Source: an uncultured Actinomycetota bacterium (GTDB taxonomy: Bacteria > Actinomycetota > Actinomycetes > Propionibacteriales > Nocardioidaceae). From it: 64,000 nucleotides of DNA. Location: NCBI GenBank assembly GCA_963808855.1, contig CAWEHA010000003.1, forward strand, positions 55,315 through 119,314, written 5' to 3'. The stretch's first letter is position 1, and every line of letters begins with the position of its first letter. Of this stretch, positions 41,013 to 63,151 are shown one piece after another. A program made the translations under genes and the position numbers. A model generated the notes under the pieces. The model did not search any database and had not been told where the DNA came from. It worked only from the letters and a program-made list of their open reading frames with translations.

Positions 41013-41014
41013 CC

Positions 41015-41383: not shown

Positions 41384-41397
41384 ACGAGCACCAATAC

Positions 41398-41461
41398 CGA
41401 GTCGGCGCGTCATTTCACGCCGACTCGAGCCACCTCACCTGACATCTAGCGCCGACTCGAC
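41398..41461. repeat. Three CGCCGACTCG units forming a hairpin (possible bidirectional terminator or REP remnant)
   Basis: 41398-407 (reverse), 41418-27, 41450-59, between convergent genes. Confidence 0.6.
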
Positions 41462-41473
41462 GTTCGATGCCGG

Positions 41474-42259: not shown

Positions 42260-42341
42260 CAGCACCTCATGGGTCGAAGAGAGACCGACGGCCGGCCGTG
42301 GCCCCCCAAGGGCACGACCGGCCGCCGGCAGGGAGGGTCTG

Positions 42342-43370
42342 TCAGTCGATCTCGCCCGGCTCGACCTCGACGCCGAGCTTCTCCTGCACCTCGGTGAGGC
42401 AGGTGAAGTCGACGTGCTCACGCCAGTCGAAGCCCTCCGGCACGTTCTCGTTCGCGATCATGTCCTCGTTCCAGGATTCGAACGAGTCCTCGCTCGCGCC
42501 GGCCTCGATCGCGATCTGGGTGGCGAACTCGCCGGTCCAGTCCTCGATCTCGGCGTCGGTGGGCTCGATGTCCTGGGCTTCCTTGACGAGCTCGATCACC
42601 GCCTCGCGGTTGTCGATGTGCTCGTCACCGGCGCCCGCGTAGAGGTTCGACTCGATGCGGCCCTCGATGTAGCCGCACACGGCGTCCTTGTTGTCCTCGA
42701 GGAAGTCGGTGCGGACCACCCAGACCTCCTGAGGGGCCTCCACGAACTCCGTCTCGAACATCGTGCCGCCGGCCTCCTCGAGCGGCGCCTGGTGGCGCGG
42801 CTGCAGCTGCGCGACGTCGATCTGGCCGGCGAGGAGCGCCTGGAGCCGCTCGTCCGAACCGCCGTTGACCGGCACGAACTCCATGTCGTCGGGGTCGACG
42901 CCGCGGTTCTCGAGGATGTTCTTGGCCACCTGGATGTTGCGGTCGCCGGTGGCACCACCGGAGATCTTCAGGCCCTCGAGCTCGTCGGGGTCGACGCCCT
43001 CGCGGGCACCCATCCACCACGCCTCGGCGTCCTTGGCGACACCGACGACGGTCAGGTCGACGCTGCCCTCGGCGATGGCCGACCAGATCACGTCGCTCTC
43101 GCCCTGGGCGATCCACACGTCGCCGCCGATGAGACCAGCGAGGTACTCCGGCGACGCCGTGACCTCCGCGGGCTCGTCGAAGCCGAGCTCGGGCCAGTAC
43201 TTCTCGTCGGCCACGATCCACGACATCTGGTTCATGTAGTCGTCGCCGTCGTAGGACATCCGCACCTGGGTGACCTCGCCGCCGTCGCCGCCACCGTCGT
43301 CACCGCCGCACGCCGAGAGCAGGGCGCTGACCGCGCCCAGGCCGGCCACGACCGCCATTGCCTTCTTCAC
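42342..43370 (-). CDS. NitT/TauT-type ABC substrate-binding lipoprotein
   Basis: Lipobox LSAC; operon with two TauC-like permeases and an ATPase. Confidence 0.8.
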   Translation of the reverse strand: MKKAMAVVAGLGAVSALLSACGGDDGGGDGGEVTQVRMSYDGDDYMNQMSWIVADEKYWPELGFDEPAEVTASPEYLAGLIGGDVWIAQGESDVIWSAIAEGSVDLTVVGVAKDAEAWWMGAREGVDPDELEGLKISGGATGDRNIQVAKNILENRGVDPDDMEFVPVNGGSDERLQALLAGQIDVAQLQPRHQAPLEEAGGTMFETEFVEAPQEVWVVRTDFLEDNKDAVCGYIEGRIESNLYAGAGDEHIDNREAVIELVKEAQDIEPTDAEIEDWTGEFATQIAIEAGASEDSFESWNEDMIANENVPEGFDWREHVDFTCLTEVQEKLGVEVEPGEID

Positions 43371-43488
43371 AGTTCCTCCATTGGAATGCTTGTTCAGGAC
43401 CCGATCGGCCGGGTCTCCGTCCTGCTGTGGTGCCCGAGGGTCCGGTCGGTGGGGAGACGTCGTGCCGTCCGCCCGGACTTCTGGCTGG

Positions 43489-44349
43489 TCAGTCGACCAG
43501 CCGGCGTCCGACCATCACCTTCCTCTCGATCCACTGCGTCAGGCCCACCAGGAGCACGCAGAAGAGGACGAAGATGAGGAGCATCGAGTAGATGCGGGCG
43601 CTGTTGAAGTTCTTCTGGGCCAGCGTCATGATGTAGCCGATCCCGTTGACGCCGGTGAACACCTCGCCGATGAACAGGCCGAGGAGCCCGCGGGTGACGC
43701 CCATCCGCACCCCGATGGCGATGAACGGGACCGTCGAGGGCATCACGATCTTGGTGAACAGCTGCAGGCGCCCGGCGCCGAACGAGCGCCCCGCGGTGAG
43801 CAGGCTGTTGTCGACGGTCTTGACGCCCTCCATGATCACCACGAGCGTGGCCGGCACGGCCGAGAGCACGATGATCCAGATGCGGGCGGCGTCGTTGATG
43901 CCGACCCAGAGCAGCAGCAGCGGCATCAGCACGATGCGCGGCATCGTGTAGAGCGCCCACACATAAGTGCTCAGCGCCTTGTCGAGCCACGGGATGCCGC
44001 CGATGGCGAGACCCAGCGGGATGGCGACCGCGAGCGAGATCACCATGCCGATCGCGTAGATCGACAGGCTGATGCCGAGGTTGTTGAAGAGGATCCCCTG
44101 CTCGTGCATCTCGACGGTCTCGGCCCACACGTCGGTGACCGCCGGCAGGTACAGCGTCGGAACGCTGCCGTACTGGGCGACGAGCTCCCAGATCACGAGG
44201 AACGCGGTGAGGTTCAGGATCGAGATCACGATGCGCTGCCAGCGGTTGAAGCGGCGCCGCGACCGGAAGCGGGGTGCGCGGCGGCGGCGCATCGCGCCGG
44301 GCACGAGCGGACGGCGGCCGGGAGCCTCGGGCTGCAGGGTGGCGGCCAT
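43489..44349 (-). CDS. NitT/TauT-type ABC permease
   Basis: EGVKTVDNSLLTAGRSFGA, GIGY. Confidence 0.9.
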   Translation of the reverse strand: MAATLQPEAPGRRPLVPGAMRRRRAPRFRSRRRFNRWQRIVISILNLTAFLVIWELVAQYGSVPTLYLPAVTDVWAETVEMHEQGILFNNLGISLSIYAIGMVISLAVAIPLGLAIGGIPWLDKALSTYVWALYTMPRIVLMPLLLLWVGINDAARIWIIVLSAVPATLVVIMEGVKTVDNSLLTAGRSFGAGRLQLFTKIVMPSTVPFIAIGVRMGVTRGLLGLFIGEVFTGVNGIGYIMTLAQKNFNSARIYSMLLIFVLFCVLLVGLTQWIERKVMVGRRLVD

Positions 44350-45224
44350 CAGATCACCACCTCCTCACGCCAGCGGCTGGCCCACACCTCGAGGCGGCGC
44401 GAGGCCGTGACGAGGAAGAGGGCGATCGCGATGAGCAGGAGGATGAAGCCGAACATCCGCGCGGTGTCGTACATGCGGGCGGACTTGATGACCTCGCCAC
44501 CGATGCCGGCGGCACCGATGAGCAGCTCGACCGACAGCAGGCCGACGAAGCCGCGCGAGATCGCGTTGCGCACGCCGCTGGCGATGAACGGCATCGCCGC
44601 CGGAAAGACCACCTTGAGGAAGACCGCGGTCCTCCCACCGCCGAAGCACCGGGCGGCCCGGACGAGCGAGGCGTCGACGGTCTGCACGCCCTCCTTGCAG
44701 CTGAGGCAGAGCGGGATGGCCGCCGACAGCACGACCATGTAGACGCTGGTGGTGGTGCTGAACCCGGAGATCAGGATCAGCAGCGGCGCGAAGGCGATGT
44801 TGGGCAGCGCGAAGAAGCCCCACAGGTAGGGCGAGGTGATGAGGTCGATCGTCGGCGAGAGGCCGATGATCAGGCCCACGGGGATCGCCAGGAGCGAGAG
44901 CGCCATGCCGAGCGCCAGCGGGCCGGCGCTGTCCTGCACCGCCTGCCACACCGAGCCGTCCTCGACGGCGTCGGCGAACGCCGTGAAGACCGCGCCGGGC
45001 CCGGGCAGGATCAGCGGCTCGGGATCGGTGATCACCACGGCGAGCTGCCAGACCAGGAAGAACAGCGCCAGGCTGATGAAGGCGGGCAGCTGGCGACGCA
45101 CGGCCTTGCCCCACGACTTCTTGCGGGCGGGCCCGAGGTGGGAGCTCCCGCCGGACTGGTGTCCCCGCACCGTCACCTCCTCGCCGGCGGCGGTGCCGAT
45201 GCTCGGAGTGCTGGAGAAGCTCAT
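44349..45224 (-). CDS. NitT/TauT-type ABC permease
   Basis: EGVQTVDASLVRAARCFGG, GIGG. Confidence 0.9.
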   Translation of the reverse strand: MSFSSTPSIGTAAGEEVTVRGHQSGGSSHLGPARKKSWGKAVRRQLPAFISLALFFLVWQLAVVITDPEPLILPGPGAVFTAFADAVEDGSVWQAVQDSAGPLALGMALSLLAIPVGLIIGLSPTIDLITSPYLWGFFALPNIAFAPLLILISGFSTTTSVYMVVLSAAIPLCLSCKEGVQTVDASLVRAARCFGGGRTAVFLKVVFPAAMPFIASGVRNAISRGFVGLLSVELLIGAAGIGGEVIKSARMYDTARMFGFILLLIAIALFLVTASRRLEVWASRWREEVVI

Positions 45225-46126
45225 CGCAGCGCCTCGGGCGGTGCCGCTGACGGCTCGTTGACGATCGACGGCTCCTCGGGGACGGGCTCCCAGGTCGGCT
45301 CCTCGGCGGCCTTCTCGGCCTGCGGGCCGAGCAGCTCCCAGATCCGGTCGCGCAGGGCCTGGAACTCCGGCAGCTTGCGGCTCTCGCGGCTGCGGGGCCG
45401 CGGGATGCCGACCTCGAGGATCTCGCGGATCCGGCCGGGCCGGTTGGTGACCACCGCGATCCGGTCGGCCAGCGTGATCGCCTCGTCGACGCTGTGGGTG
45501 ATGAAGATGATGGCCTGTCCGGTCTCGGCGACGATGCGCGCGAGCTCGTCCTGCATCACCTCGCGGGTCATGGCGTCGACGGCGGCGAACGGCTCGTCCA
45601 TCAGCAGCAGCCGCGGCTCCGTGACGAGGGCGCGGGCCAGGCCGACGCGCTGCCGCATGCCGCCGGACAGCTCGCGCGGGTAGGCCTTCTCGAAGCCCTC
45701 GAGCCCGACGAGCTTGATGTAGTGCTGGACGAGGTCCTTGGTGGAGGAGTCGACCCGCTTCTGCATCTCGAGACCGAACCGGACGTTCTGCTCGGTGGTG
45801 CGCCACGGCATCAGCGCGTAGTCCTGGAACACGACCGCGCGGTCGGTGCCCGGGCCGGTGACCGGCGTGCCGAGCACCTCGATGGTGCCGTCGGACGGCG
45901 GCATGAGGCCGGCGACGACGTTGAGGAATGTGCTCTTGCCACAGCCGCTCGGGCCGACGACGGCGAGGAACTCACCCTGCGCCAGCTCGATGCTGAAGTC
46001 CCGCAGCGCGATCAGCGTGTCCTTCTCGCGGAGCCGGTCATAGGTGACGGCGACGCCGCGCGCCTCGACAGCGAGCGTCTGCGCGCCCAGTTCGCGTCCG
46101 GTGTCGGCCGGATCCCGGTGCTTCAT
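45221..46126 (-). CDS. NitT/TauT-type ABC ATPase
   Basis: GPSGCGKS, LSGGMRQR, LLMDEPF, FITHSVDEA. Confidence 0.95.
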   Translation of the reverse strand: MKHRDPADTGRELGAQTLAVEARGVAVTYDRLREKDTLIALRDFSIELAQGEFLAVVGPSGCGKSTFLNVVAGLMPPSDGTIEVLGTPVTGPGTDRAVVFQDYALMPWRTTEQNVRFGLEMQKRVDSSTKDLVQHYIKLVGLEGFEKAYPRELSGGMRQRVGLARALVTEPRLLLMDEPFAAVDAMTREVMQDELARIVAETGQAIIFITHSVDEAITLADRIAVVTNRPGRIREILEVGIPRPRSRESRKLPEFQALRDRIWELLGPQAEKAAEEPTWEPVPEEPSIVNEPSAAPPEALR

Positions 46127-46344: not shown

Positions 46345-47505
46345 CTAGGCGCTGCGGTAGAGCTTGGTGAGCGTGAACTCGCGGTGCCCGAGCAGCTCGG
46401 CGGCGGTGAGTCGGCCGTTGATCGTGCGCTCGACCACGTCGATGAGGTGCTCGCCCTGCTCCTCCACCGAGGCGCCGCTGGTGAGGAGCGGCGAGCAGTC
46501 GACGTCGATGTGCTCGCCCATCGACGCCACCGTCTTCGGGTTGGCCGAGATCTTCACGACCGGCTGGATCGGGTTGCCGATCGGGTTGCCCTGACCGGTG
46601 GGGAACAGGTTCACGACGCCGCCGCCGGCGGCCATCAGCGTGACGCACTCGGCGGCCGCCGAGGAGGTGTCCATGAAGTGCAGGCCGTTCGTGGTGGGCG
46701 CCTCGGCCGGCGCCAGGGCGCCGACGACCGGCTGGGTGCCGGTCTTGACGATGTTGCCGAGCGCCTTCTCCTCGATCGTCGACAGTCCGCCGGCGATGTT
46801 GCCCTGGGTCGGCTGGGAGCCGAGCAGGTTGGCGCCGGTCTTCTCGATCATGTCGATGTAGTCGTCGTAGAAGCCCTGGAAGCGCGCCCGCACCTCGTCG
46901 CTCACACACCGCTCGGCGATGAGGTGCTCGCCGCCAGTGAGCTCGCTGGTCTCGCCGAAGATCATGGTGCCGCCGGCGTCGACCCACCGGTCGCTGAGGT
47001 AGGCGGTGACCCGGCACGAGCCGAGCCCGGTGGTGGTGTCCGACTCGCCGTCCTTGGTGGTGAGGAGGATCTCGGAGCGCTGCACCGGCTCGCGGCTGTG
47101 CTCGCTGGCGTCCTGGAGGAACTGCTTGGCCACCTTCGCGGCCCTCGGGATGATGCTGAGGTCACCGAAGCCCTCGAGCCACATGCCCTCCACCGGCTTG
47201 CCGGTCTTGGCGATGCCCTCGACCACCCGGCCCGTCCAGTTCGGCTCCACTCCGATCACGATCACGGCCGCCACGTTCGGGTTGGAGCCGATGCCGATCA
47301 GCGTGCGGAAGGTGAGCTCGAGGTCGTCGCCGAACTGCAGCCGCCCGAACGCGTGAGGCAGCGCCATCACGCCGGGGATCAGGGCCGCCACGCCCTCGGC
47401 GGCCGCATTGGACAGGTCGTCGACCGGGAGGATCGCGACGTGGTTGCGGGTGCCGACGGCACCGTTGGGCCGGCGGAATCCGGTCAGGCCACGCTGTTCT
47501 GCCAC
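46345..47505 (-). CDS. suyB: (2R)-sulfolactate sulfo-lyase beta subunit (UxaA family)
   Basis: RNHVAILPVDDLSNAA, PHAFGRLQFGDDLEL, GESDTTTGLGSC, SQPTQGNIAGGLSTIEEKALGN, MDTSSAAAECVTLMAAGG, HREFTLTKLYRSA, matching remembered SuyB. Confidence 0.85.
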   Translation of the reverse strand: MAEQRGLTGFRRPNGAVGTRNHVAILPVDDLSNAAAEGVAALIPGVMALPHAFGRLQFGDDLELTFRTLIGIGSNPNVAAVIVIGVEPNWTGRVVEGIAKTGKPVEGMWLEGFGDLSIIPRAAKVAKQFLQDASEHSREPVQRSEILLTTKDGESDTTTGLGSCRVTAYLSDRWVDAGGTMIFGETSELTGGEHLIAERCVSDEVRARFQGFYDDYIDMIEKTGANLLGSQPTQGNIAGGLSTIEEKALGNIVKTGTQPVVGALAPAEAPTTNGLHFMDTSSAAAECVTLMAAGGGVVNLFPTGQGNPIGNPIQPVVKISANPKTVASMGEHIDVDCSPLLTSGASVEEQGEHLIDVVERTINGRLTAAELLGHREFTLTKLYRSA

Positions 47506-47786
47506 CGGGCACTCCTCACGTTGTGGATGTGGACGTAGTCGCCGACGGCGATGTCGGCGCTGGCGATCGCGGTGCGGACGCCGTACTCGATGACGTCGTC
47601 GCCGCTCGCCACGTCGTGCAGGGCCACCTTGTGCCCGAGCGGGATCGAGGCGAGCACCTCCACCGTGACCGCGGTCGCGCCGTCGAGGAAACCGATCTGC
47701 GCGGAGCCGGGCTCCACGTCGCGCACGGCGACGGCGACGTGGTCACCGTCCTTGTGCGCCAAGAAGCTGGGGAGGGATTCCGACAT
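47484..47786 (-). CDS. suyA: Sulfolactate sulfo-lyase alpha subunit (SAF domain)
   Basis: FLAHKDGDHVAVAV, IPLGHKVAL, VIEYG, VHIHNVRSARW. Confidence 0.82.
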   Translation of the reverse strand: MSESLPSFLAHKDGDHVAVAVRDVEPGSAQIGFLDGATAVTVEVLASIPLGHKVALHDVASGDDVIEYGVRTAIASADIAVGDYVHIHNVRSARWQNSVA

Positions 47787-47798
47787 CGGGACCCTTTC

Positions 47799-47849
47799 TG
47801 GTCAGTGGTCTGACCTCCGACCCTAGAGAGCGGCTCCAGACGGTGTCAA
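47799..47849 (-). promoter_or_regulatory. suyAB promoter TTGACA-18-TAGGGT with FadR-type box TGGTCTGACC
   Basis: Box at 47806-15, partial second TGGTCAG at 47799. Confidence 0.7.
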
Positions 47850-48964
47850 CGGTCACATCCACGAGGTGAGCCGCACGAGCCTCCTGACCCCTCCGCCGGC
47901 GTGACCAGCAGCGGGAGCGGGATTCCCGCCAGCCCTCGGGTGCGCGCCGGCAGCCGCGCGGCCACGTCGCTGAGCACCGCGGCCGCGGGATGTCCAGGGG
48001 CGGAGATCACCAGCGGGACGCCGGCGTCGCCCGCGGCCCGCACCCCGGCGTCCAGCGGGACGCTGCCGAGCAGGGGTGCCTCGGTGGCGGCCGCGAGCCG
48101 CTCTCCCCCACCGGACCCGAAGACGTCGCCGGCCATGTTCTCCACCACGCCGGCGACGGGCATCCGCGCGTCGCGCGCCATCCGCGAGACCCGCGCCGCC
48201 ACCGACTCCGCGGCGTGCTGCGGCGTGGTCACCACGATCATCGACGCCCCGGGCAGCAGCTCCAGCAGCGAGAGGGTCACGTCGCCGGTGCCCGGGGGCA
48301 GGTCGACGAGCAGCACGTCGAGCTGGCCCCAGGCGACGTCGTCGACGAACTGCTCCAGCGCCTTGTGCAGCATCGGACCGCGCCACACCACCGGCTCGTC
48401 GTCGTCGACGAAGAAGCCGACCGACATCAGGCGCACGCCGTGCGCCTCGAGCGGGAACATCAGGCCGGGCACGGCCACCGGCGATCGGCGCACGCCGAAC
48501 AGGGTGGGCTGCGAGTAGCCCCACACGTCGGCGTCGAGCAGGCCCACCCGCGCGCCGGACGCGGCCAGGGAGGCGGCGAGGTTGGCCGTCACGGTCGACT
48601 TGCCGACCCCGCCCTTGCCGGAGGCGACGGCGAACACCCGGGTCGCGCTGCCGAACCCGCCCGGCCGTCGCTGCAGCGGGCGCAGCAGGGACGCGACGGC
48701 GTGGCGGCGGTCGTCGTCGGCGACCTCCACCTCGACCCGGGCCGAGGGCCCGGCCGCCTCCCGCAGCGCGGCCCCGAGGGCGTCGCGGTAGCCCGGGTCG
48801 TCGTCGAGACCCCAGGCGCGCACGTGCACCGTGCCGTGCCGGTGCTCGCCAGTGTCGAGCAGCCCGAGCTCGCCGAGCGGGCGGCCGCTGAGCGGCTCCA
48901 CGACGCCGGCGACGGCCTCGAGCACGGCCCCGACGTCGGCGCGCGGCCGCAGCACCGACCTCAT
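47846..48964 (-). CDS. mrp: Mrp/NBP35/ApbC Fe-S carrier ATPase
   Basis: ASGKGGVGKS, LLDADVWG, VWRGPM, VDLPPGTGD, GVVENM. Confidence 0.93.
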   Translation of the reverse strand: MRSVLRPRADVGAVLEAVAGVVEPLSGRPLGELGLLDTGEHRHGTVHVRAWGLDDDPGYRDALGAALREAAGPSARVEVEVADDDRRHAVASLLRPLQRRPGGFGSATRVFAVASGKGGVGKSTVTANLAASLAASGARVGLLDADVWGYSQPTLFGVRRSPVAVPGLMFPLEAHGVRLMSVGFFVDDDEPVVWRGPMLHKALEQFVDDVAWGQLDVLLVDLPPGTGDVTLSLLELLPGASMIVVTTPQHAAESVAARVSRMARDARMPVAGVVENMAGDVFGSGGGERLAAATEAPLLGSVPLDAGVRAAGDAGVPLVISAPGHPAAAVLSDVAARLPARTRGLAGIPLPLLVTPAEGSGGSCGSPRGCDR

Positions 48965-51795
48965 GCGCCGGCCCCCGGCACGCGGAAGGCGCGGCGCCGC
49001 GGCTTGACCGGACGCATCATGAACTCCGGCCGGCGCAGGCCCTCGGCGTTGGGGCCGGGCCGGGTCATGGCGAGCCACTCGCGGTAGACCTCGCGCGCCC
49101 GCCCGGTGTCGACCTCGACGTCGCCGTACTGGTCGCCGGGTGCGGCCGGCGCCACGGTGACGAGCTGGTGCCAGCAGTGGGCGCCCGACCACGGGTCGGG
49201 CTGCACCGGGAACGTCAGGTTCTGGTGGACGCCGGGGTCGTCCCAGTTGATCCGGGAGCTGTCGGGGTCGTTGCTGCGGAAGGGCGCCGGGTGCTCGGCG
49301 TACCGCATCCGCCACACCCCCTCGTCGCTGCGGTCGATGTCGACCTTCCCGCTGGCCCAGCGGCTGGCGTGGATGTCGTCGAGCCGCCACCGGCCCATGT
49401 GGTGGCTGAGCGCCACGATGCCGGGGCGGATGCCCTGGTGCGCCCACGCCCGCGCCACGAAGTGGCCGATGCGCGTGGTCACCCGCACCAGGTCGCCGGT
49501 GGCGATGCCGAGTCGCGCGGCGTCGTCGTCGTGCACCCACAGCGGGTGGGTGTTGCTCAGCTCGTTGAGGTACTTGGCGTTGCCCGAGCGGGTGTGGATG
49601 AGGGTGGGCAGCCGGAACGTCGGCACGAGCACCACCTGGCCGGCGTCGAGGTCGACCTTGCGGCGCGACACGTGCGACTCGATGTAGCCGGGGGTGGCGT
49701 GCTCGGGCCAGCCGAACGAGGCCATGGAGTCCGACCAGATCTCGAGCTTGCGGCTCGGCGTGAGCCAGCCCGCCACCTCCGAGCCGTCGTCGAGCCGCAC
49801 CCCCACCGCGCCCGCCTCGCCGATGAGCGGCGGCGTGGAGTCGTCGGTGGTGGGCTTGCGGAGCACGCCGTCGGCGTCGGGCTCGGCGCCGGCGCGCTCC
49901 TCGCGGGTGAGCGCGCGCTCGTCCTGGCGGTAGACGTCCTTGCTGATCTCGACGACGCCGTACTTGCGCATGTAGCCGAGCGCCGTGAGCCCCTCGGCCT
50001 CGGCCTTCTCGGGCAGACCGGGCACCCGGTTCTCGAAGACCCAGCGGTAGTACTCGTCGACGGTGACCTTCTCCCCCGGCCGGTAGGGCGACTCGAAGTA
50101 CCGGCGGATGCCGAGCGAGCCGTCGGGGTCGATGCGCCAGGAGAGGTCGAACCAGAACTCGTTCTCCTCCCACACCTCGCCGGGATTGCTCTCGCGGGTG
50201 TCGCTCACCGGCCGGCCGAGCTTCTCCCGCGCCACCCGCTGCACCGGCTGCCGGAACCCGAGCCAGCGGCCCGCGTGGGTCTCGTAGGAGTGGGTGTCGT
50301 GGCGCTCGGTGGCGTGGCCCATCGGCAGCACGTAGTCGGCGAAGATCGCCGTCTCCGACCAGGTCGGCGTCAGCGCGACGTGCAGGCCGACGGCGTCGGT
50401 GCGGGTGAGGGTCTCGATCCAGCTGAAGCCGTCCGGGTTGGTCCACACCGGGTTGTAGACGCGGGTGAAGTAGACGTCGAGGTCGCCGCGGCCGTCCTGC
50501 AGCAGGTGTGGCAGCAGGAACGACATCTCGTTGGTCGACAGCGGGTACTCCGCGGGCCAGAGCAGCTCGTTCCACTGGTCGTGGCCCTCGGGGACGTCGA
50601 AGCCGTGGGCGATGAACTTGTCCCAGCCGTTGGGGCTGGTGCCGCCGGGGGTGCCGACGCTGCCGGTGAGCACGTTGAGGAAGAACAGCGACCGGGCGAC
50701 CTGCCAGCCGCCGAGGTTGCCCGCCGCGGCCGAGCGCCAGATGTGGGCCGAGAGCTTGCTGCCCGCCCCGGCGACGATCTCGGCGAGCGCCTCGATCCGC
50801 TCCACCGGCACCTGCGCCTCCTCCGCGGCGAACTCGAAGGTGTAGCGGGCGTAGTCGTCGGTCATCGCGTCGACGAACGACTCGAAGTCGCGGGGCCGTT
50901 CGGGGTGGAGGCGGTCGAGATAGGTGCCCCAGTTGACCCAGCGCCGCAGGTAGTCGCGATCGATCCGGTCGGTGCGCAGCAGGTACGAGGCGACCGCGAG
51001 CAGGATCGCCGCCTCGCTGCCGGGCCACGGCGCCAGCCACAGGTCGGCGTGGCTCGCCGTGTTGGACATCCGGACGTCGAGCACGACCAGCTTCGCGTTG
51101 CCCTCGTGCTTGGCCTCCATGATCCGCTGGGCGTGCGGGTTGAAGTAGTGACCCGTCTCCAGGTGCGACGAGAGCAGCAGGATCACGTCGGCGTTCGCGT
51201 AGTCGGGCGCGGGCCGGTCGTAGCCGCCCCAGGTGGTGTAGCCGAGCCGGGCGCCGGAGGAGCAGATGTTGGTGTGGCTGTTGTGGCCGTCGACCCCCCA
51301 CGCCAGCAGGAACCGCTCGGCGAAGCCGTCCTCCCCCGGTCGGCCGACGTGGTAGACCACCCGGTCGCGCCGGTCCTGCTCGATCGCGGCGCGGATCCGG
51401 CCGGCGATGTCGTCCAGCGCCTCGTCCCAGGTGCAGCGCTCCCACCCGCCGGCGCCGCGCTCGCCGACCCGCTTCAGCGGGTGCAGGATCCGCTCCGGGT
51501 CCTCGATCTGGTTGATCGTGGCCGGGCCCTTGGCGCAGTTGCGGCCGCGGGAGCCGGGGTGGGCGGGGTTGCCCTCCAGCTTGGTGATCGACAGGTCGTC
51601 CTTCGCCACGTGCGCGAGCAGGCCGCACGCCGACTCGCAGTTGAAGCACGTGGTGGGGATGAGCATGAACTCGCGCTTCACCTTGCGCGGGTGCGCGCGG
51701 GCGTCGTGCGCCACGTGGTGGTCCCAGGTCTCCGGGGGCGGGTAGTTACGCAGGTGCTCATGGCTCCGCGCGCCGGGCAGTTCGTGGGTGGTCAT
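48961..51795 (-). CDS. Mo-bisPGD (DMSO reductase family) catalytic subunit, Cys-ligated, no Tat signal
   Basis: TTCFNCESACG...NCAKG FS0 cluster; HNSHTNICSSG ligand loop; ADYVLP; C-terminal HTRSGN/molydop-binding domain. Confidence 0.92.
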   Translation of the reverse strand: MTTHELPGARSHEHLRNYPPPETWDHHVAHDARAHPRKVKREFMLIPTTCFNCESACGLLAHVAKDDLSITKLEGNPAHPGSRGRNCAKGPATINQIEDPERILHPLKRVGERGAGGWERCTWDEALDDIAGRIRAAIEQDRRDRVVYHVGRPGEDGFAERFLLAWGVDGHNSHTNICSSGARLGYTTWGGYDRPAPDYANADVILLLSSHLETGHYFNPHAQRIMEAKHEGNAKLVVLDVRMSNTASHADLWLAPWPGSEAAILLAVASYLLRTDRIDRDYLRRWVNWGTYLDRLHPERPRDFESFVDAMTDDYARYTFEFAAEEAQVPVERIEALAEIVAGAGSKLSAHIWRSAAAGNLGGWQVARSLFFLNVLTGSVGTPGGTSPNGWDKFIAHGFDVPEGHDQWNELLWPAEYPLSTNEMSFLLPHLLQDGRGDLDVYFTRVYNPVWTNPDGFSWIETLTRTDAVGLHVALTPTWSETAIFADYVLPMGHATERHDTHSYETHAGRWLGFRQPVQRVAREKLGRPVSDTRESNPGEVWEENEFWFDLSWRIDPDGSLGIRRYFESPYRPGEKVTVDEYYRWVFENRVPGLPEKAEAEGLTALGYMRKYGVVEISKDVYRQDERALTREERAGAEPDADGVLRKPTTDDSTPPLIGEAGAVGVRLDDGSEVAGWLTPSRKLEIWSDSMASFGWPEHATPGYIESHVSRRKVDLDAGQVVLVPTFRLPTLIHTRSGNAKYLNELSNTHPLWVHDDDAARLGIATGDLVRVTTRIGHFVARAWAHQGIRPGIVALSHHMGRWRLDDIHASRWASGKVDIDRSDEGVWRMRYAEHPAPFRSNDPDSSRINWDDPGVHQNLTFPVQPDPWSGAHCWHQLVTVAPAAPGDQYGDVEVDTGRAREVYREWLAMTRPGPNAEGLRRPEFMMRPVKPRRRAFRVPGAGA

Positions 51796-51805
51796 CGGGC
51801 TCCGT

Positions 51806-53320
51806 TCATGACAGGGGCACGTCTTGTCCGGCCCGCACGAAGGCGGTCTCGTAGGCCAGCAGCGCCGGTTGCACGAGCAGGCCGGCGACGGCGAGCAGCC
51901 AGCCGGGCTCGCCCGTCCACGCCACGGCGGCCAGCACCAGCGCGACGACGGTGGGGGCGACCTTGCCGCCCCAGAACAGCGAGCGGTAGCGGCCGCGGAG
52001 GATCGTGCGCGCCGCCACCGCGGCGCCGCGGCTGTGGTGGCGCCCGCCGAGGTCGAGACCCGAGATCAGCAGGTCGAGCACGCAGGCGACGACGAGCACG
52101 CGAGCCGCCAGGGCCATCCCGTCGGCGTCCAGCCCCGCCACGAGCCCGGCGACCGCCACGGCGCCGGCGCCGACCTCGGCCGCCTGCACGAGGAGGTGCG
52201 GCAGCAGCCAGCGGGACTGCCACAGGTCGCGCCCCTCGGCCTGCCGGAAGAGGAACGCGGTGTAGCCGGCGGCCGCGGCCGCGGCGACGATGGCGGGCAC
52301 GGCGAGCCAACGTTGCGCTGTTGCGGCGTCGGCGATGCCGGTGAGGAACCACGCCGTGCAGGCAGCGCCGAACGCCAGCAGGCAGTAGCCGCCGAGCACC
52401 AGCCACGAGCGGTGGTTGCCGCGGGTGAACAGGAACCAGAACCGCTCGGGCCGCTTGAGGTCCCACACCAGCAGTGCGCCGGTGACCGCCGCCCCGACCG
52501 CGCCCACCACCGGAGCCACGACCGCGCCGGTGGCACCGAGGTCGACGCCGAGGAGCACCGCGAGCGCCGCCACGAACAGCGCTCCCGCCCCGAGGCCCTT
52601 GGTCCACAGGTAGGTGATCACCCGCCAGCCCCACGGGCGCGGGTGCGCGGTGTTGAGGGTGGTGGCGGCCGTCGGGTCGGCGCCCTCGAAGTCGGCCGAC
52701 GTCGTGAGCCGGTGGTCGTCGGGCTGCGCCCAGATGTAGGTGTCGCGCACCGGTGCCTCGAGCGGGTCGAGCACCGCCTTCGCGGCGCCGAGGTAGAACA
52801 CGTTGGGCCCGGTGCCCTGGTCGGGCGCCCGGACGGCGGTCTCGTTGCTGGCGATCAACCGCGAGATGCCCGAGCTCTCGTCGTCGAGGTCGCCGACCCA
52901 GATCGAGTGGGTCGGGCACACCACCACGCAGGCGGGCTCGAGCCCGTCGTCCACCCGATGCGCGCAGAAGTTGCACTTGGCCGCGGTGTTGGTGTCGTCG
53001 TCGATGTAGATCGCGTCGTACGGGCACGCCTGCATGCACGACTTGCACCCGATGCAGGAGGAACTGTCGAAGTCGACGATGCCGTCGTCGCGCTTGAACA
53101 GCGCGTTCGTCGGACAGATCTTGATGCACGGCGCGTCGGTGCAGTGGTTGCAGCGCATCACGCCGAAGTCGCGGCGGGAGTCGGGGAAGGTGCCGGAGTC
53201 GACGTACTTGACCCAGGTGCGGAACTGTCCGACCGGCACCCGGTGCTCGGTCTTGCAGGCCACGGTGCACGCGTGGCACCCGATGCAGGTGTTCTGGTCG
53301 ATCGCGAAGCCGTACCTCAC
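51806..53320 (-). CDS. 4x[4Fe-4S] electron-transfer domain fused to NrfD/PsrC membrane anchor
   Basis: CIGCHAC, CNHCTDAPC, CIGCKSC, KCNFC..PACVVVCP, then WGWRVITYLW, DLKRPERF and TM helices. Confidence 0.92.
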   Translation of the reverse strand: MRYGFAIDQNTCIGCHACTVACKTEHRVPVGQFRTWVKYVDSGTFPDSRRDFGVMRCNHCTDAPCIKICPTNALFKRDDGIVDFDSSSCIGCKSCMQACPYDAIYIDDDTNTAAKCNFCAHRVDDGLEPACVVVCPTHSIWVGDLDDESSGISRLIASNETAVRAPDQGTGPNVFYLGAAKAVLDPLEAPVRDTYIWAQPDDHRLTTSADFEGADPTAATTLNTAHPRPWGWRVITYLWTKGLGAGALFVAALAVLLGVDLGATGAVVAPVVGAVGAAVTGALLVWDLKRPERFWFLFTRGNHRSWLVLGGYCLLAFGAACTAWFLTGIADAATAQRWLAVPAIVAAAAAAGYTAFLFRQAEGRDLWQSRWLLPHLLVQAAEVGAGAVAVAGLVAGLDADGMALAARVLVVACVLDLLISGLDLGGRHHSRGAAVAARTILRGRYRSLFWGGKVAPTVVALVLAAVAWTGEPGWLLAVAGLLVQPALLAYETAFVRAGQDVPLS

Positions 53321-53358
53321 GCGGGACCTTCCCTGGTGCTCGAACGCCGGTGGAAAGA

Positions 53359-53375
53359 GGTCTGTCCACTATAGT
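53359..53375. promoter_or_regulatory. FadR-type box GGTCTGTCCA abutting palindromic ACTATAGT (TATAGT -10 on both strands)
   Basis: Divergent intergenic region between the FeS-NrfD gene and fadR. Confidence 0.6.
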
Positions 53376-53419
53376 CATCCCGTCGGTGCCTCCACGCCGA
53401 CGGGACCGAACGGAGTGCG

Positions 53420-54169
53420 ATGACACCCGAGGACATGCTCGCGGGCTGGCAGCCCCTCGGCCAAGGCACCCTGGGCGACCGCATCAAGTCCGAGATCATG
53501 CGCGTGATCCGCGACCAGCGGCTCGGACCGGGCGACCGGCTGCCGTCCGAGCGCGACCTCGCCGCCACCCTCCGGGTCAGCCGGCCCTCGGTGCGCGAGG
53601 CGGTCCGGTCGCTGCAGGCCGAGGGACGCCTCGTCGTCCGGCACGGCCAGGGGGTCTTCGTCGCCGAGCCCGCGATGCAGCGCAACCTGCGCGAGTCGAT
53701 CGCCCAGCTCGACCACAGCCTGAGCGAGCTGTTCGCGATGCGGGAGGTGCTGGAGGTGCCGGCCGCGCGCTGGGCCGCGCAGCGCCAGGACCCCGAGGGC
53801 GTGCAGGCCGTGCAGGCCGCCTTCACCGACCTCGACGACGCGCTGCGGGTGGAGCCGCGCGACTTCGAGCAGCTCCAGCTGCTCGACGCCAACTTCCACC
53901 TCCGCATCGTGCAGGCGGCCGGGAACCGCCTGCTCGTGCAGAGCCAGGGCGTGCTGAACGAGCTCCTGCTCACGGGCATGCAGACCACCCTGGCGATCGA
54001 GGGCCGGGTCGACCAGTCCCGCGAGGAGCACCTGCGGATCCTCAACGCCATCCTCGACGGCGACGCAGCCTCGGCCGCCCGGGCCGCGCAGGCGCACGTC
54101 AACAACACCCGCCGCGCGGCGAACCGACGCATCGCCGAGGCCAACGCCCGGCTCGAGCCGAGTCCCTAG
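53420..54169 (+). CDS. FadR/GntR family regulator
   Basis: GDRLPSERDLA, VSRPSVREA, RHGQGVFV, DANFH, AAGNRLL. Confidence 0.93.
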   Translation: MTPEDMLAGWQPLGQGTLGDRIKSEIMRVIRDQRLGPGDRLPSERDLAATLRVSRPSVREAVRSLQAEGRLVVRHGQGVFVAEPAMQRNLRESIAQLDHSLSELFAMREVLEVPAARWAAQRQDPEGVQAVQAAFTDLDDALRVEPRDFEQLQLLDANFHLRIVQAAGNRLLVQSQGVLNELLLTGMQTTLAIEGRVDQSREEHLRILNAILDGDAASAARAAQAHVNNTRRAANRRIAEANARLEPSP

Positions 54170-54178
54170 GACTCGGGA

Positions 54179-55771
54179 GTGGCCGGGCTCCGTGCGGGGA
54201 GCAACTGGCTGACCCGTCCCTGTCGTGGCGACCTGGTGGCGGGGCTCACGGTCGCGCTCGTGCTCGTGCCCCAGTCGCTCGCCTACGCGGTCGTGGCCGG
54301 GATGCCGCCGGTCAACGGCCTGTACGCCGCCGCCGTCGCACCGCTGCTCGCCGGCCTGATCGGCTCCTCGCCGTACCTCTCCACCGGACCCGCGGCCCTC
54401 ACCAGCCTGCTCGTCCTGGGCTCGCTCGCGCCGTTCCCCGACCTCTCGGCGCCCGAGTACGTCGCCCACGCCGGACTGCTGGCGCTGGTGGTCGGCGCGT
54501 GCCGGGTGACGCTCGGGCTGGTGCGCGGCGGTGGGCTCGCCTACCTGATGAGCCAGCCGGTCGTCGTCGGCTTCACGGTGGCGGCCGCCGTCCTGATCTC
54601 CACCTCCCAGCTGCCTGCTGCGGTCGGCACCTCGGGCTCGTCCGACAGCCCGCTGGTGTCGGCCGTGGGACTCCTCGACGACGTCGGCGCGTGGTCGTGG
54701 GCGGCGATCCTCGTCTCGATCGCCACGTTCGCTGGCACGCTGCTCGCCCGCCGGGTGCACCCGCTGCTGCCCGGCGGCTTCCTGGTCGCCGTCCTCGCGC
54801 TGCTCGTCGTGCGCTCGGGGTGGCTCGACCAGCCCGTCGTCGGCACCATCCCCTCCGGCCTGCCGCCGTTCAGCCTCGACCTGCCGTGGGCGTCGCTCCC
54901 CTCGCTGCTCGTGCCGGGCGTGGTGATCGCGCTCGTCGGATTCGCCGAGCCCGCCGCGATCGCGCGCCGCTACGCCTCCGCCGAGCGCCAGCCGTGGGAC
55001 CCCGACCGCGAGCTGGTCGGCCAGGGCCTCGCGAACCTCGGCGTCGCCGTCACCGGCGGCTTCGCCGTCGGCGGCTCGTTCTCCCGCTCCTCCCTCAACA
55101 GGCTCTCCGGGGCCAAGTCGCGGTGGAGCGGCGTCGTGTCCGGCGCCGTGGTGCTCGCCTTCCTCCCGTTCACGGGCGTGCTGTCGGGCCTGCCCGTCGC
55201 CGTCCTGGCCGGCCTCGTGCTGGCGGCGATGGTCACCCTCCTCGACCCGCGGCCGCTGCTCCGCACGTGGCGGTACTCGCGTCCCCAGTTCGTCGTGGCC
55301 CTGGTGACGGCGGTCGTCTGCCTCGCGGCCGCTCCCGAGGTGCAGTGGGGCGTCGTCGCCGGCGTCGGCCTCGCGCTCGGCATCCACCTGTGGCGCGAGC
55401 GCCGGCTCGACGTCGACGTCTGGGACGAGCACGACCTCCTCCACGTGCGACCCCAGGGCGTCCTCTACTTCGGCTCCGCGCCGGCCCTCGAGACCCGCAT
55501 CCTCCGCGAGCTCGCCGAGCATCCCGGGCTGCGCCGGGTCGAGCTGCATCTGCAGCGGCTCGGCCGGGTCGACCTCACGGGCGCCCTGGTGCTGCGCGAC
55601 ATCTGCCGCGACCTCGCCGCGGCCGACGTCGCGGTGGTGATCAGTGGCGCGCAGCCGCAGAGCCGCCGCCTCATCGGCACGGTGCTCGCCGGCGAGGGCG
55701 TCGACCACACCCACGGGCCCCGCAACACCGTCTCCCCCGCCCACCCCCGCCTGCGGGAGCGCCCGACGTGA
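54179..55771 (+). CDS. SulP family anion transporter with STAS domain
   Basis: DLVAGLTVALVLVPQSLAYA, LSTGPA, RELVGQGLAN, GSFSRS, LYFGSA. Confidence 0.93.
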   Translation: MAGLRAGSNWLTRPCRGDLVAGLTVALVLVPQSLAYAVVAGMPPVNGLYAAAVAPLLAGLIGSSPYLSTGPAALTSLLVLGSLAPFPDLSAPEYVAHAGLLALVVGACRVTLGLVRGGGLAYLMSQPVVVGFTVAAAVLISTSQLPAAVGTSGSSDSPLVSAVGLLDDVGAWSWAAILVSIATFAGTLLARRVHPLLPGGFLVAVLALLVVRSGWLDQPVVGTIPSGLPPFSLDLPWASLPSLLVPGVVIALVGFAEPAAIARRYASAERQPWDPDRELVGQGLANLGVAVTGGFAVGGSFSRSSLNRLSGAKSRWSGVVSGAVVLAFLPFTGVLSGLPVAVLAGLVLAAMVTLLDPRPLLRTWRYSRPQFVVALVTAVVCLAAAPEVQWGVVAGVGLALGIHLWRERRLDVDVWDEHDLLHVRPQGVLYFGSAPALETRILRELAEHPGLRRVELHLQRLGRVDLTGALVLRDICRDLAAADVAVVISGAQPQSRRLIGTVLAGEGVDHTHGPRNTVSPAHPRLRERPT

Positions 55772-57356: not shown

Positions 57357-57368
57357 GGTCGAGGCCTT

Positions 57369-59572: not shown

Positions 59573-59599
59573 CGGTGGGCCTCCAGCACGGATCAGGAA

Positions 59600-59672
59600 T
59601 GCAAACGAGTGCAGTGTCTCGGCTGCGCAAACCCGGTGTCAAGCCACGCAAGGCCCGATGCAATCGGTTGCA
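59600..59672 (-). promoter_or_regulatory. Internal promoter (TTGACA 59637-42) flanked by two TGCAA-N4-(T/G)TGCA-type boxes
   Basis: TGCAAACGAGTGCA (59600) and TGCAATCGGTTGCA (59659). Confidence 0.6.
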
Positions 59673-59681
59673 GGAAACTGC

Positions 59682-60947: not shown

Positions 60948-60950
60948 GGC

Positions 60951-63133: not shown

Positions 63134-63151
63134 GGGGCACTTTCCCACACG

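What the first reader, a model, noticed from the sequence alone, without database searches (positions are those of the whole stretch)
46345..55771. Candidate new organosulfonate desulfonation + sulfite-oxidation module: suyAB - mrp - Mo enzyme - FeS/NrfD - FadR - SulP
Seen: suyA/suyB sit directly downstream of, and on the same strand as, a Mo-bisPGD oxidoreductase operon, with FadR and SulP divergent. Established: SuyAB (Paracoccus pantotrophus) cleaves (R)-sulfolactate to pyruvate and toxic sulfite, which proteobacteria remove with SorAB, SoeABC or TauE/CuyZ-type exporters; none is recognisable here. Inference: this actinobacterium oxidises sulfite in the cytoplasm with a Mo enzyme outside the SoeA clade, passes electrons to menaquinone through NrfD, and exports sulfate through SulP. 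I know of no description of this arrangement.
Basis: partly seen in the sequence, partly recalled or inferred. Interest (0 to 1): 0.85.

Follow-up and report, generated by a model that had tools for sequence, protein, structure and literature searches.

The report
Sulfolactate lyase beside a candidate sulfite dehydrogenase
A soil actinobacterium has placed genes that split sulfolactate into pyruvate and toxic sulfite next to, and under the same predicted repressor as, an uncharacterised inward-facing molybdenum enzyme that most likely oxidises sulfite to sulfate; the enzyme family is widespread, but its pairing with the lyase is confined to a few relatives.

Summary
The lyase pair is an orthologue of SuyAB: 56-59% identical to the copies in the Cupriavidus hpsNO-suyAB and Paracoccus suyAB-exporter clusters, and ≤40% to other UxaA enzymes.

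The 944-aa Mo-bisPGD subunit has no Tat signal and a Cys ligand. It is translationally packed with a 4x[4Fe-4S]-NrfD fusion (8 helices, N-in). It lies in its own clade, separate from Roseobacter SoeA, so the "outside SoeA" claim holds.

In 62 loci from other genomes, 74% carry persulfide dioxygenase-rhodanese, DsrE2/TusA, SQR or sHdr/LbpA genes, and 52% carry SulP. This points to sulfite as the substrate.

suyAB was beside the enzyme in none of the 60 sampled loci. The pairing occurs only in a few Nocardioidaceae: here, N. caldifontis, and a differently arranged genome.

One GntR operator type sits before suyA and in the divergent Mo/gntR-sulP promoter, so co-regulation here is likely.

The genome also holds seven TauE and four SUOX-fold genes elsewhere. 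Ruegeria's xsc-soeABC is a precedent.

Verdict: new variant of a known kind, function unproven.

The parts
46345..47505 (-). suyB orthologue: large subunit of (2R)-sulfolactate sulfo-lyase (split UxaA family)
   Evidence: Pfam GD_AH_second + GD_AH_C. It is 55.7-59% identical to the large subunits in the Cupriavidus pinatubonensis hpsN-hpsO-suyAB cluster and the Paracoccus versutus GntR<>suyAB-'sulfate exporter' cluster. Identity then drops to <=40% for other UxaA-family proteins. It is 80-92% identical to actinobacterial copies that lie beside TauE, Ldh_2 and 2-Hacid_dh genes.
47484..47786 (-). suyA orthologue: small SAF-domain subunit
   Evidence: Weak SAF hit, and a hit to the N-terminus of the galactarate dehydratase model. 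It is 39% identical over 87 aa to the Cupriavidus small subunit. It overlaps suyB by 22 nt.
47800..47845 (-). suyA promoter-like element (TTGACA-N18-TAGGGT, read by eye) followed by the GntR-type operator AGGTCAGACCACTGACC
   Evidence: The same box lies 10-20 nt before the suyA ribosome-binding site in N. caldifontis, Aeromicrobium, Prauserella and Georgenia. The pattern AGGTNNKDCCWCT has 2 hits in 64 kb against 0.13 expected, both at the two promoters of this locus. The generic sigma-70 scan did not flag the promoter.
47846..48964 (-). Mrp/NBP35 (ApbC-like) P-loop ATPase, an extra copy coupled to the Mo gene
   Evidence: Pfam ParA/NUBPL 266 bits. Its start overlaps the Mo stop codon (ATGA). 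A second, canonical Mrp lies at C2:1507673-1508800. An Mrp follows the Mo gene in about 20 of 29 class-level loci by tblastn and also in Natrinema. This copy lacks the CxxC motif.
48961..51795 (-). Catalytic Mo-bisPGD subunit (944 aa), Tat-less and Cys-ligated; candidate sulfite:quinone oxidoreductase subunit
   Evidence: Three MopB domains. There is no twin-arginine leader in the first 45 residues. The Cys in 'NICSS' aligns with the Mo ligands of NapA and PsrA. All NCBIfam hits are far below their cut-offs. The protein belongs to a monophyletic family (SH-aLRT 99) that is separate from SoeA.
51806..53320 (-). Fusion of a four-cluster ferredoxin (PsrB/SoeB-like) with an 8-helix NrfD/PsrC-type quinone anchor
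   Evidence: Fer4_11 + NrfD. Sixteen Cys fall in four CxxCxxCxxxC-type groups. There are eight hydrophobic segments, with Arg/Lys-rich loops on the same side as the N-terminal FeS domain. The fusion lies directly upstream of the Mo gene in every other locus examined (tblastn; ORF clustering 56 loci). The FeS domain is 45% identical to the Azoarcus Arx-like FeS subunit and 34% to SoeB.
53321..53419 (.). Divergent promoter region with the operator variant AGGTCTGTCCACTATAG (53358-53374) overlapping a TATAGT element
   Evidence: Pattern hit at 53358-53370. The reverse-complement box TAGAGGTCTGGCCACTATAGTG sits in the equivalent N. caldifontis region. A related box precedes the FeS-NrfD gene in Actinomadura madurae.
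53420..54169 (+). GntR/FCD (FadR-subfamily) regulator, SuyR-like
   Evidence: GntR + FCD domains. It is 61% identical to the regulator next to suyAB in Aeromicrobium and 47% to the one in the Actinomadura TauE/Mo cluster.
54179..55771 (+). SulP-family anion transporter with a STAS domain; proposed sulfate exporter
   Evidence: Sulfate_transp + STAS. A SulP homologue lies within 8.5 kb of the Mo enzyme in 32 of 62 other loci. It is 51% identical to the SulP next to the module in G796. Substrate and direction are not determined.
42342..46126 (-). TauABC-type ABC transporter (binding protein, two permeases, ATPase) directly downstream of suyB; probable sulfonate uptake
   Evidence: NMT1, BPD_transp_1 and ABC_tran domains. 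The same genes follow suyB in N. caldifontis. Related transporters flank the Mo module in L043, L062 and Actinomadura.

Best explanation
Two units that occur separately in most other genomes lie side by side here under one predicted GntR/FCD repressor.

Unit 1 is suyAB, a sulfolactate sulfo-lyase that yields pyruvate and sulfite in the cytoplasm. It sits with a TauABC-type uptake system.

Unit 2 is a two-gene, cytoplasm-facing molybdoenzyme: an FeS-NrfD fusion and a Cys-ligated Mo-bisPGD subunit, followed by a dedicated Mrp-type ATPase. It most likely oxidises sulfite to sulfate. Electrons would pass through five [4Fe-4S] clusters to menaquinone in the NrfD domain. The co-regulated SulP protein would then remove the sulfate.

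The enzyme works like SoeABC but belongs to a different clade. Elsewhere that clade is usually attached to persulfide-oxidising gene sets.

Shown here: gene content, orthology, phylogenetic separation from SoeA, conserved neighbourhoods and conserved operators.

Inferred: topology, sulfite as substrate, the quinone acceptor, the direction of SulP transport, and the effector of the regulator.
For: - SuyAB orthology and context.
- No Tat signal on either subunit, 16 Cys in the FeS domain, and 8 helices with a positive-inside pattern that puts the FeS domain in the cytoplasm.
- Cys ligand of the Mo centre.
- Neighbourhood census of 62 loci from other genomes: PDO-rhodanese in 33 of the clustered loci, SulP in 32/62, ArsR 21, DsrE2 19, TusA 15, SQR 9, HdrD-like and LbpA-like 4 each. 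Any sulfur-oxidation gene was present in 46/62. The annotated R. opacus, RHA1 and T. roseum loci agree.
- Sulfite is the one product shared by PDO, sHdr and SuyAB.
- This genome lacks DsrE2 and TusA of that type, so the enzyme does not need them.
- Where suyAB lacks the Mo module, it sits beside TauE and/or YeiH-type exporters instead.
- A second, differently ordered cluster in G796 joins SulP, Mrp-Mo-FeSNrfD, GntR, TauE and suyBA.
- Operators of one type occur at both promoters: 2 hits in the window against 0.13 expected.
- The regulator is 61% identical to a suyAB-linked one.
- Precedent: xsc lies directly upstream of soeABC in Ruegeria (PMC4334477).
Against: - No biochemical or expression data exist. 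No RNA run holds this organism.
- The nearest sequence relatives are Tat-exported Psr/Arx-like reductases, not SoeA.
- In about 20 loci DsrE2-TusA lie in the same operon as the enzyme, which would also fit a sulfane-sulfur or thiosulfate substrate.
- suyAB and the Mo clade co-occur no more often than chance.
- In three genomes that hold both, the two are unlinked: G567, G764 and RHA1.
- The closest suyB (92% identical, G909) sits in a genome without the enzyme.
- The genome has other possible sulfite outlets: 7 TauE and 4 SUOX-fold genes.
- The local Mrp has lost its CxxC motif.
Confidence: 0.6

Rival explanations
1. The molybdoenzyme handles sulfane sulfur or thiosulfate rather than free sulfite. 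It might oxidise TusA/DsrE2-bound persulfide or thiosulfonate, or cleave thiosulfate in the manner of Psr/Phs. On this view it lies next to suyAB only because both belong to a broad sulfur-stress regulon.
For: DsrE2 and TusA sit immediately upstream, in the same orientation, in about 20 loci. The closest sequence relatives are Psr/Phs/Arx-like enzymes at 270-383 bits, against 115-127 bits for SoeA. PDO-rhodanese fusions can yield thiosulfate (established knowledge of CstB-type enzymes).
Against: This genome and N. caldifontis pair the enzyme with SuyAB, whose only sulfur product is sulfite. This genome has no DsrE2 or TusA of that type. Many loci have PDO or sHdr but no TusA/DsrE2. SulP linkage fits an oxyanion end product.
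Confidence: 0.2
2. The adjacency has no functional meaning. An accessory, horizontally mobile respiratory module of unrelated function happened to insert next to a suyAB cluster in one Nocardioides lineage.
For: Co-occurrence is at chance level. suyAB has its own promoter and operator. The family is found on plasmids and megaplasmids in Rhodococcus, Thermomicrobium and haloarchaea.
Against: Related operators sit at both promoters, and nowhere else in 64 kb. G796 shows an independent second arrangement. In Actinomadura the module lies beside TauE, a related GntR regulator and a TauABC-type transporter, with a related box upstream. The sulfur context across phyla is consistent.
Confidence: 0.1
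3. The SuyAB-like pair is not a sulfolactate lyase. It would be a dehydratase or lyase for another 2-hydroxy acid, sulfonated or not, in the conserved creatininase / GFO-IDH-MocA / cupin / FAH pathway.
For: Actinobacterial copies carry Asp where the proteobacterial SuyB has Cys (TKDGESD against TKCGESD). NCBI names them only 'UxaA family hydrolase'. The neighbouring pathway is unassigned.
Against: Identity to SuyB in clusters matching the characterised loci is 56-59%, with a clear gap to all other UxaA proteins. Close homologues sit beside TauE, YeiH, Ldh_2 (ComC-type) and 2-Hacid_dh genes.
Confidence: 0.1

Closest known systems
SoeABC sulfite:quinone oxidoreductase (Allochromatium vinosum, Aquifex aeolicus; R. 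pomeroyi SPO3559-3557)
   Same: A Tat-less Mo-bisPGD subunit with an N-terminal FeS motif, a four-cluster ferredoxin and an NrfD-type anchor, all predicted to face the cytoplasm. It associates with cytoplasmic sulfite producers, and in Ruegeria lies directly after the desulfonating enzyme Xsc (PMC4334477; PMC8076601).
   Different: It is a separate clade: only 115-127 bits over residues 48-290. The B and C subunits are fused. Gene order is BC-A, not A-B-C. The NrfD domain shows no significant similarity to SoeC. An Mrp or NarJ-like accessory gene is present. The JGI records cited give these proteins only a generic COG-type name, not a SoeA name.
PsrABC / PhsABC / Arx-type complex iron-sulfur molybdoenzymes (Thermus PsrABC, PDB 2VPZ)
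   Same: These are the closest sequence relatives. They share the Cys Mo ligand and the FeS and NrfD partners.
   Different: Those enzymes are Tat-exported and face the periplasm, with separate B and C subunits, and they work as reductases. This enzyme has no signal peptide on either subunit.
SuyAB (R)-sulfolactate sulfo-lyase of Paracoccus pantotrophus / Cupriavidus pinatubonensis
   Same: A two-subunit split UxaA architecture, 56-59% identity, and a GntR regulator and exporter nearby in Paracoccus.
   Different: Asp replaces the Cys of TKCGESD. The sulfite outlet is a molybdoenzyme plus SulP rather than SuyZ/YeiH or TauE.
cst-type persulfide detoxification operons (CstR-TauE-CstA-CstB-SQR of Staphylococcus aureus)
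   Same: The usual home of this Mo family contains a PDO-rhodanese fusion, TusA/DsrE-type sulfurtransferases, SQR and a thiol-sensing repressor.
   Different: In these loci a membrane molybdoenzyme and SulP appear alongside, or instead of, the TauE exporter. In this window that gene set is absent and SuyAB takes its place.

Membership tests
SuyAB sulfolactate sulfo-lyase | Two subunits: a small SAF subunit and a large UxaA-type subunit encoded by adjacent genes | tested here: met
   Genes of 100 aa and 386 aa overlap by 22 nt, with the expected domains.
SuyAB sulfolactate sulfo-lyase | Orthology to the subunits in loci that match the characterised suy clusters | tested here: met
   55.7-59% identity to Paracoccus and Cupriavidus copies in suyR/suyAB/exporter and hpsNO-suyAB contexts. 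The next UxaA proteins are <=40% identical. SuyA is 39% identical.
SuyAB sulfolactate sulfo-lyase | Conserved Cys of the TKCGESD motif, as in the proteobacterial enzymes | tested here: not met
   All four actinobacterial sequences have Asp and both proteobacterial sequences have Cys. The role of this residue is not known to me.
SuyAB sulfolactate sulfo-lyase | Fe(II)-dependent release of sulfite and pyruvate from (R)-sulfolactate | not testable with these tools
   Requires an enzyme assay.
SoeABC sulfite dehydrogenase | Catalytic and FeS subunits without export signals, facing the cytoplasm | tested here: met
   Neither subunit has a Tat motif. The positive-inside pattern puts the FeS domain and both termini of the anchor inside the cell.
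SoeABC sulfite dehydrogenase | Catalytic subunit belongs to the SoeA clade | tested here: not met
   115-127 bits to four Roseobacter-type SoeA sequences, identified by A-B-C synteny and xsc linkage. The tree places SoeA outside the family and its superclade. A distant sister relationship is not rejected (AU p = 0.155). No A. vinosum sequence was available.
SoeABC sulfite dehydrogenase | Three separate subunits in the order soeA-soeB-soeC | tested here: not met
   B and C are fused in one 504-aa protein encoded upstream of A.
SoeABC sulfite dehydrogenase | Sulfite-dependent quinone reduction | not testable with these tools
   Requires a membrane or purified-enzyme assay.
Psr/Phs polysulfide/thiosulfate reductases | Tat-dependent export of the AB module to the periplasm | tested here: not met
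   No twin-arginine leader is present, whereas the 27-33% identical relatives have one.
Mrp/NBP35 Fe-S cluster carriers | P-loop plus the CxxC cluster-bridging motif between ENM and GGG | tested here: not met
   The P-loop GKGGVGKS is present. The CxxC stretch is deleted ('ENMAGDVFGSGGG'), as in N. caldifontis. It is kept in the housekeeping paralogue and in most other Mo-linked Mrps.

The most novel reading that the evidence does not exclude
This clade would be a second, independently evolved family of cytoplasm-facing sulfite:menaquinone oxidoreductases. It is encoded by two genes (an FeS-NrfD fusion and the catalytic subunit) and is derived from Psr/Arx-like ancestors rather than from SoeABC.

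It would act as a portable sulfite sink in Actinomycetota, Thermomicrobia and haloarchaea. Different sulfite producers would recruit it under different sensors: ArsR/CsoR-type regulators for persulfide oxidation, and a SuyR-like GntR regulator for organosulfonate breakdown, as here.
Probability: 0.5. Interest if true: 0.7.

Novelty: new variant of a known kind. Interest (0 to 1): 0.6.

Why it matters
Many aerobic heterotrophs make sulfite in the cytoplasm, from persulfides through PDO and from sulfonates through SuyAB, Xsc or CuyA. Many of them lack a recognised SoeABC, SorAB or Apr/Sat route.

If this clade is a sulfite:quinone oxidoreductase, it would fill that gap for a sizeable share of genomes. 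It is present in about 8-10% of the sampled Actinomycetota and 26% of the sampled Nocardioidaceae, and also in Thermomicrobium and haloarchaea.

It would also couple sulfite detoxification to energy conservation. It may correct annotation too: a soda-lake metagenome survey reported phsA and ttrABC genes in Actinobacteria (PMC6704655), and such calls may include this family, although I did not check that.

The window adds one specific point. The module can be recruited to an organosulfonate regulon, and this gives a clean experimental handle because sulfolactate yields sulfite only, with no sulfane sulfur.

Tried and rejected
- A housekeeping role for the Mo enzyme. I first suspected this because identity exceeds 70% across orders. 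I rejected it because only 33/401 class and 39/401 phylum genomes carry the enzyme.
- General suyAB-Mo linkage. Rejected by the 2x2 counts.
- A named SoeA reference. None came from NCBIfam, which has no SoeA model, from the PDB, from the 50%-representative search, whose top 150 were mostly fragments with no SoeA names, or from plasmids. The plasmid candidates turned out to be an Arx-like cluster in Azoarcus and a soluble enzyme in Ralstonia. I solved this by finding Roseobacter genomes through a Paracoccus SuyB query and searching them.
- RNA evidence. No run holds this organism; the best run shares only 0.22 of the sampled words.
- Generic promoter and terminator scan. It found nothing useful at 70% G+C.
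- Literature. Six searches for a description of this clade found none.
- Python box. It was lost. A planned batch comparison of the FeS and NrfD domains was replaced by single BLASTP comparisons.
- Structure prediction. Not run, because it would not settle substrate or orientation.

Full report
**Observation**

- suyB-like, 46345-47505(-)
- suyA-like, 47484-47786(-)
- mrp, 47846-48964(-)
- a 944-aa Mo-bisPGD gene, 48961-51795(-)
- a 504-aa FeS-NrfD fusion, 51806-53320(-)
- a divergent GntR/FCD gene, 53420-54169(+)
- SulP-STAS, 54179-55771(+)

The FeS-NrfD, Mo and mrp genes are packed tightly, with a 10-nt gap and then an ATGA overlap. gntR and sulP are 10 nt apart. A TauABC-type ABC transporter follows suyB. 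Nocardioides caldifontis has the same order over more than 15 kb.

**Is the lyase SuyAB?**

A tblastn search of plasmid records with the large subunit gave a two-step distribution. Identity is 55.7-69.5% to a group that includes Cupriavidus pinatubonensis and four Paracoccus species. Everything else is at or below 40%.

The Cupriavidus copy lies in hpsN-hpsO-MFS-suyA-suyB. This is the DHPS cluster in which the review PMC12890257 places SuyAB. The Paracoccus versutus copy lies in GntR<>suyA-suyB-'putative sulfate exporter'.

Actinobacterial homologues 80-84% identical to ours were examined in three genera:
- In Aeromicrobium they sit beside TauE, a GntR/FCD regulator, 2-Hacid_dh and Ldh_2 (ComC-type) genes.
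- In Prauserella they sit beside the same genes plus a YeiH-type gene.
- In Georgenia they sit beside TauE, YeiH and GntR/FCD genes.

JGI names these proteins sulfolactate sulfo-lyase beta, and NCBI calls them only 'UxaA family hydrolase'. One difference stands out: all actinobacterial copies read TKDGESD where the proteobacterial ones read TKCGESD. I accept the SuyAB assignment at about 85-90%.

**The molybdoenzyme itself**

- The catalytic subunit has the FS0 motif CFNCESAC...C.
- A Cys aligns with the Mo ligands of NapA and PsrA.
- There is no twin-arginine leader.
- Every NCBIfam hit is far below its cut-off; the best is PhsA at 173 bits against a cut-off of 694.
- Its partner starts directly with the first ferredoxin motif and carries 16 Cys, enough for four [4Fe-4S] clusters.
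- The partner continues into eight hydrophobic helices. Their Arg/Lys-rich loops lie on the side of the N-terminus.
- By the positive-inside rule, the FeS domain, and with it the catalytic subunit, faces the cytoplasm. This is the orientation proposed for SoeABC (PMC8076601). It is an inference, not a measurement.

**Distribution and neighbours**

The enzyme is accessory:
- 33 of 401 genomes of the class carry it.
- 39 of 401 genomes of the phylum carry it.
- 39 of 151 genomes of the family carry it.

I fetched about 17-20 kb around 60 orthologues and added two annotated loci. I then called and clustered ORFs and annotated the recurrent clusters.
- By tblastn, the FeS-NrfD fusion lies directly upstream of the Mo gene in every other locus examined. 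ORF clustering recovered it in 56 loci.
- PDO-rhodanese fusions occur in 33 of the clustered loci.
- SulP occurs in 32 of the 62 loci from other genomes.
- An ArsR regulator occurs in 21, DsrE2 in 19, TusA in 15, DUF202 in 13 and SQR in 9.
- A NarJ-like chaperone occurs in 8.
- HdrD-like and LbpA-like genes occur in 4 each.
- 46 of 62 loci (74%) hold at least one sulfur-oxidation or sulfur-relay gene, and 53 of 62 hold one of those or SulP.
- Mrp follows the Mo gene only in the window's own class and in haloarchaea.

The family also occurs on R. jostii RHA1 pRHL3 as a DsrE-TusA-FeSNrfD-Mo-Mrp operon. It is on the Thermomicrobium roseum megaplasmid after a CsoR-type regulator, and on haloarchaeal plasmids.

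**Relation to SoeA**

No named SoeA was directly available. I found Roseobacter genomes through a Paracoccus SuyB query and searched six of them with the window's enzyme.

Four of them carry a Tat-less gene of about 940-960 aa followed by a 249-264-aa FeS gene and a 285-316-aa membrane gene. In Ruegeria this trio is preceded by xsc. That matches soeABC (SPO3559-3557) of R. pomeroyi, which lies beside pta and tauR (PMC4334477).

The window's enzyme scores as follows:
- 115-127 bits to these SoeA proteins, over residues 48-290 only
- 270-383 bits to Tat-exported Psr/Arx-like proteins
- 976-1482 bits to its own family

In a maximum-likelihood tree the family is monophyletic (SH-aLRT 99). It lies in a superclade (SH-aLRT 100) with six relatives, some of which carry Tat signals. 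SoeA lies outside on a long branch. An AU test does not reject a distant sister relationship (p = 0.155). The FeS domain is 45% identical to an Arx-like FeS subunit and 34% to SoeB. The NrfD domain shows no significant match to SoeC. 'Outside the SoeA clade' is therefore supported.

**Linkage with suyAB**

- In the class sample, 33 genomes have the Mo enzyme, 18 have a SuyB orthologue, and 3 have both, including this one. About 1.5 would be expected by chance. In the other two the genes are on different contigs.
- In the family sample the counts are 39, 4 and 2.
- suyAB lies beside the enzyme in none of the 60 sampled loci.
- The genome with the closest SuyB (92% identical, G909) has no Mo enzyme.
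- RHA1 carries the two on different plasmids.

So there is no general module.

Local linkage is nevertheless real. N. caldifontis repeats the arrangement. A genome of another genus, G796, has SulP, Mrp-Mo-FeSNrfD, Lyase_1, GntR, TauE and suyBA in a different order. A 7.4-kb JGI contig probably holds both genes (inferred from equal contig length only).

**Regulation**

The 59-bp gap before suyA holds TTGACA-N18-TAGGGT followed by AGGTCAGACCACTGACC. The same box precedes suyA in N. caldifontis, Aeromicrobium, Prauserella and Georgenia.

A variant, AGGTCTGTCCACTATAG, overlaps a TATAGT element in the divergent Mo/gntR-sulP promoter. It is conserved in N. caldifontis. A related box precedes the module in Actinomadura, where TauE, a related GntR regulator and a TauABC-type transporter lie alongside.

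The degenerate pattern hits exactly these two sites in 64 kb, against 0.13 expected. The regulator is 61% identical to the suyAB-linked regulator of Aeromicrobium. Co-regulation of both units by a SuyR-like repressor is therefore likely. The effector is inferred to be sulfolactate.

**Synthesis**

Sulfite is the one product shared by PDO, sHdr and SuyAB. This genome lacks DsrE2/TusA of the type that often accompanies the enzyme. Where suyAB lacks the enzyme, TauE or YeiH-type exporters stand in its place.

The most economical reading is a SoeABC-like, but not SoeA-clade, sulfite:menaquinone oxidoreductase with SulP removing sulfate. In a few Nocardioidaceae it has been recruited to the sulfolactate regulon. 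I put this at about 0.6.

The main rival is a sulfane-sulfur or thiosulfate substrate. It is supported by the DsrE2-TusA operon structure elsewhere and by the Psr-like ancestry.

The genome is not short of other outlets. It has seven TauE genes, one of them next to its PDO-rhodanese gene at C2:1836640-1838827, and four SUOX-fold genes.

**Novelty**

I found no description of this clade in the searchable literature. One metagenome survey reports phsA and ttrABC in Actinobacteria (PMC6704655), which may include it.

Notes from this scan on other genomes reached the same reading for the persulfide context. Those are AI leads, and I re-derived the census independently.

The concept, a desulfonating enzyme next to a cytoplasmic Mo sulfite dehydrogenase, has a precedent in Ruegeria xsc-soeABC. 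I rate the finding a new variant of a known kind, with interest 0.6.

**Limits**
- There are no expression or activity data.
- The SoeA references are Roseobacter-type only.
- The tree is a quick LG+G4 search with long branches.
- Promoters were read by eye.
- The script machine was lost.

Noticed in passing
window 47846-48964: The Mo-linked Mrp lacks the CxxC cluster-binding motif ('ENMAGDVFGSGGG'), as does the N. caldifontis copy. The housekeeping paralogue (C2:1507673-1508800) and most other Mo-linked Mrps keep it. The window's copy ends in SCGSPRGC. It may be a degenerate carrier or a pure ATPase chaperone.
   Followed up: partly
window 47030-47060: All four actinobacterial SuyB sequences read TKDGESD, where the Cupriavidus and Paracoccus SuyB read TKCGESD. 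This is a clade-wide Cys-to-Asp change of unknown consequence.
   Followed up: partly
window 38336-46126: The gene set 2-Hacid_dh / creatininase-family / GFO-IDH-MocA / cupin (plus FAH and a TauABC-type ABC transporter) travels with suyAB in N. caldifontis, Georgenia and G909 (52-84% identity). It looks like an unassigned pathway that feeds sulfolactate or sulfopyruvate.
   Followed up: partly
L066 1201-8677; L067 1-4889; L164 11086-18951; L003 229-8345: A second recurrent set lies beside suyAB or the Mo module in Aeromicrobium, Prauserella, G796 and Actinomadura. It comprises an Sdh-like flavoprotein/FeS/cytochrome b trio, a Lyase_1 or class-I fumarase-like hydro-lyase, TauE and a TauABC- or Na/sulfate-type transporter. 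It is possibly a route for a C4 sulfonate.
   Followed up: no
P0247, P0274, P0321 (representative proteins): Relatives 29-39% identical by BLASTP carry Tat signals but keep the N-terminal 'RYPPFE.W' motif of the Tat-less family. The superclade therefore has both periplasmic and cytoplasmic members.
   Followed up: partly
G000 C2:1836640-1838827: The genome's own PDO-rhodanese fusion sits next to a TauE gene, far from the Mo module. The genome has no DsrE2/TusA of the type usually linked to the module.
   Followed up: partly
G523 C3:2750889-2752861; G636 C7:1666279-1669094; G662 C1:663208-665992; G893 C2:1027557-1029817: In several genomes the Mo gene is matched in two or more adjacent pieces, or with internal TGA codons. 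These may be frameshifted pseudogenes or sequencing errors.
   Followed up: no
L070 8001-11154 (Sulfurovum mangrovi plasmid): A 38%-identical, full-length but unannotated homologue is matched in two pieces between nrfD and a TorD-like gene, near sulfate adenylyltransferase and rhodanese genes.
   Followed up: no
window 55896-63148: Directly after sulP, on the minus strand, lies an operon of aldehyde dehydrogenase, an M24-family protein, a 3-hydroxyisobutyrate-dehydrogenase-like protein, and E2 and E1 components of a 2-oxoacid dehydrogenase. It is not conserved next to the module in N. caldifontis.
   Followed up: no
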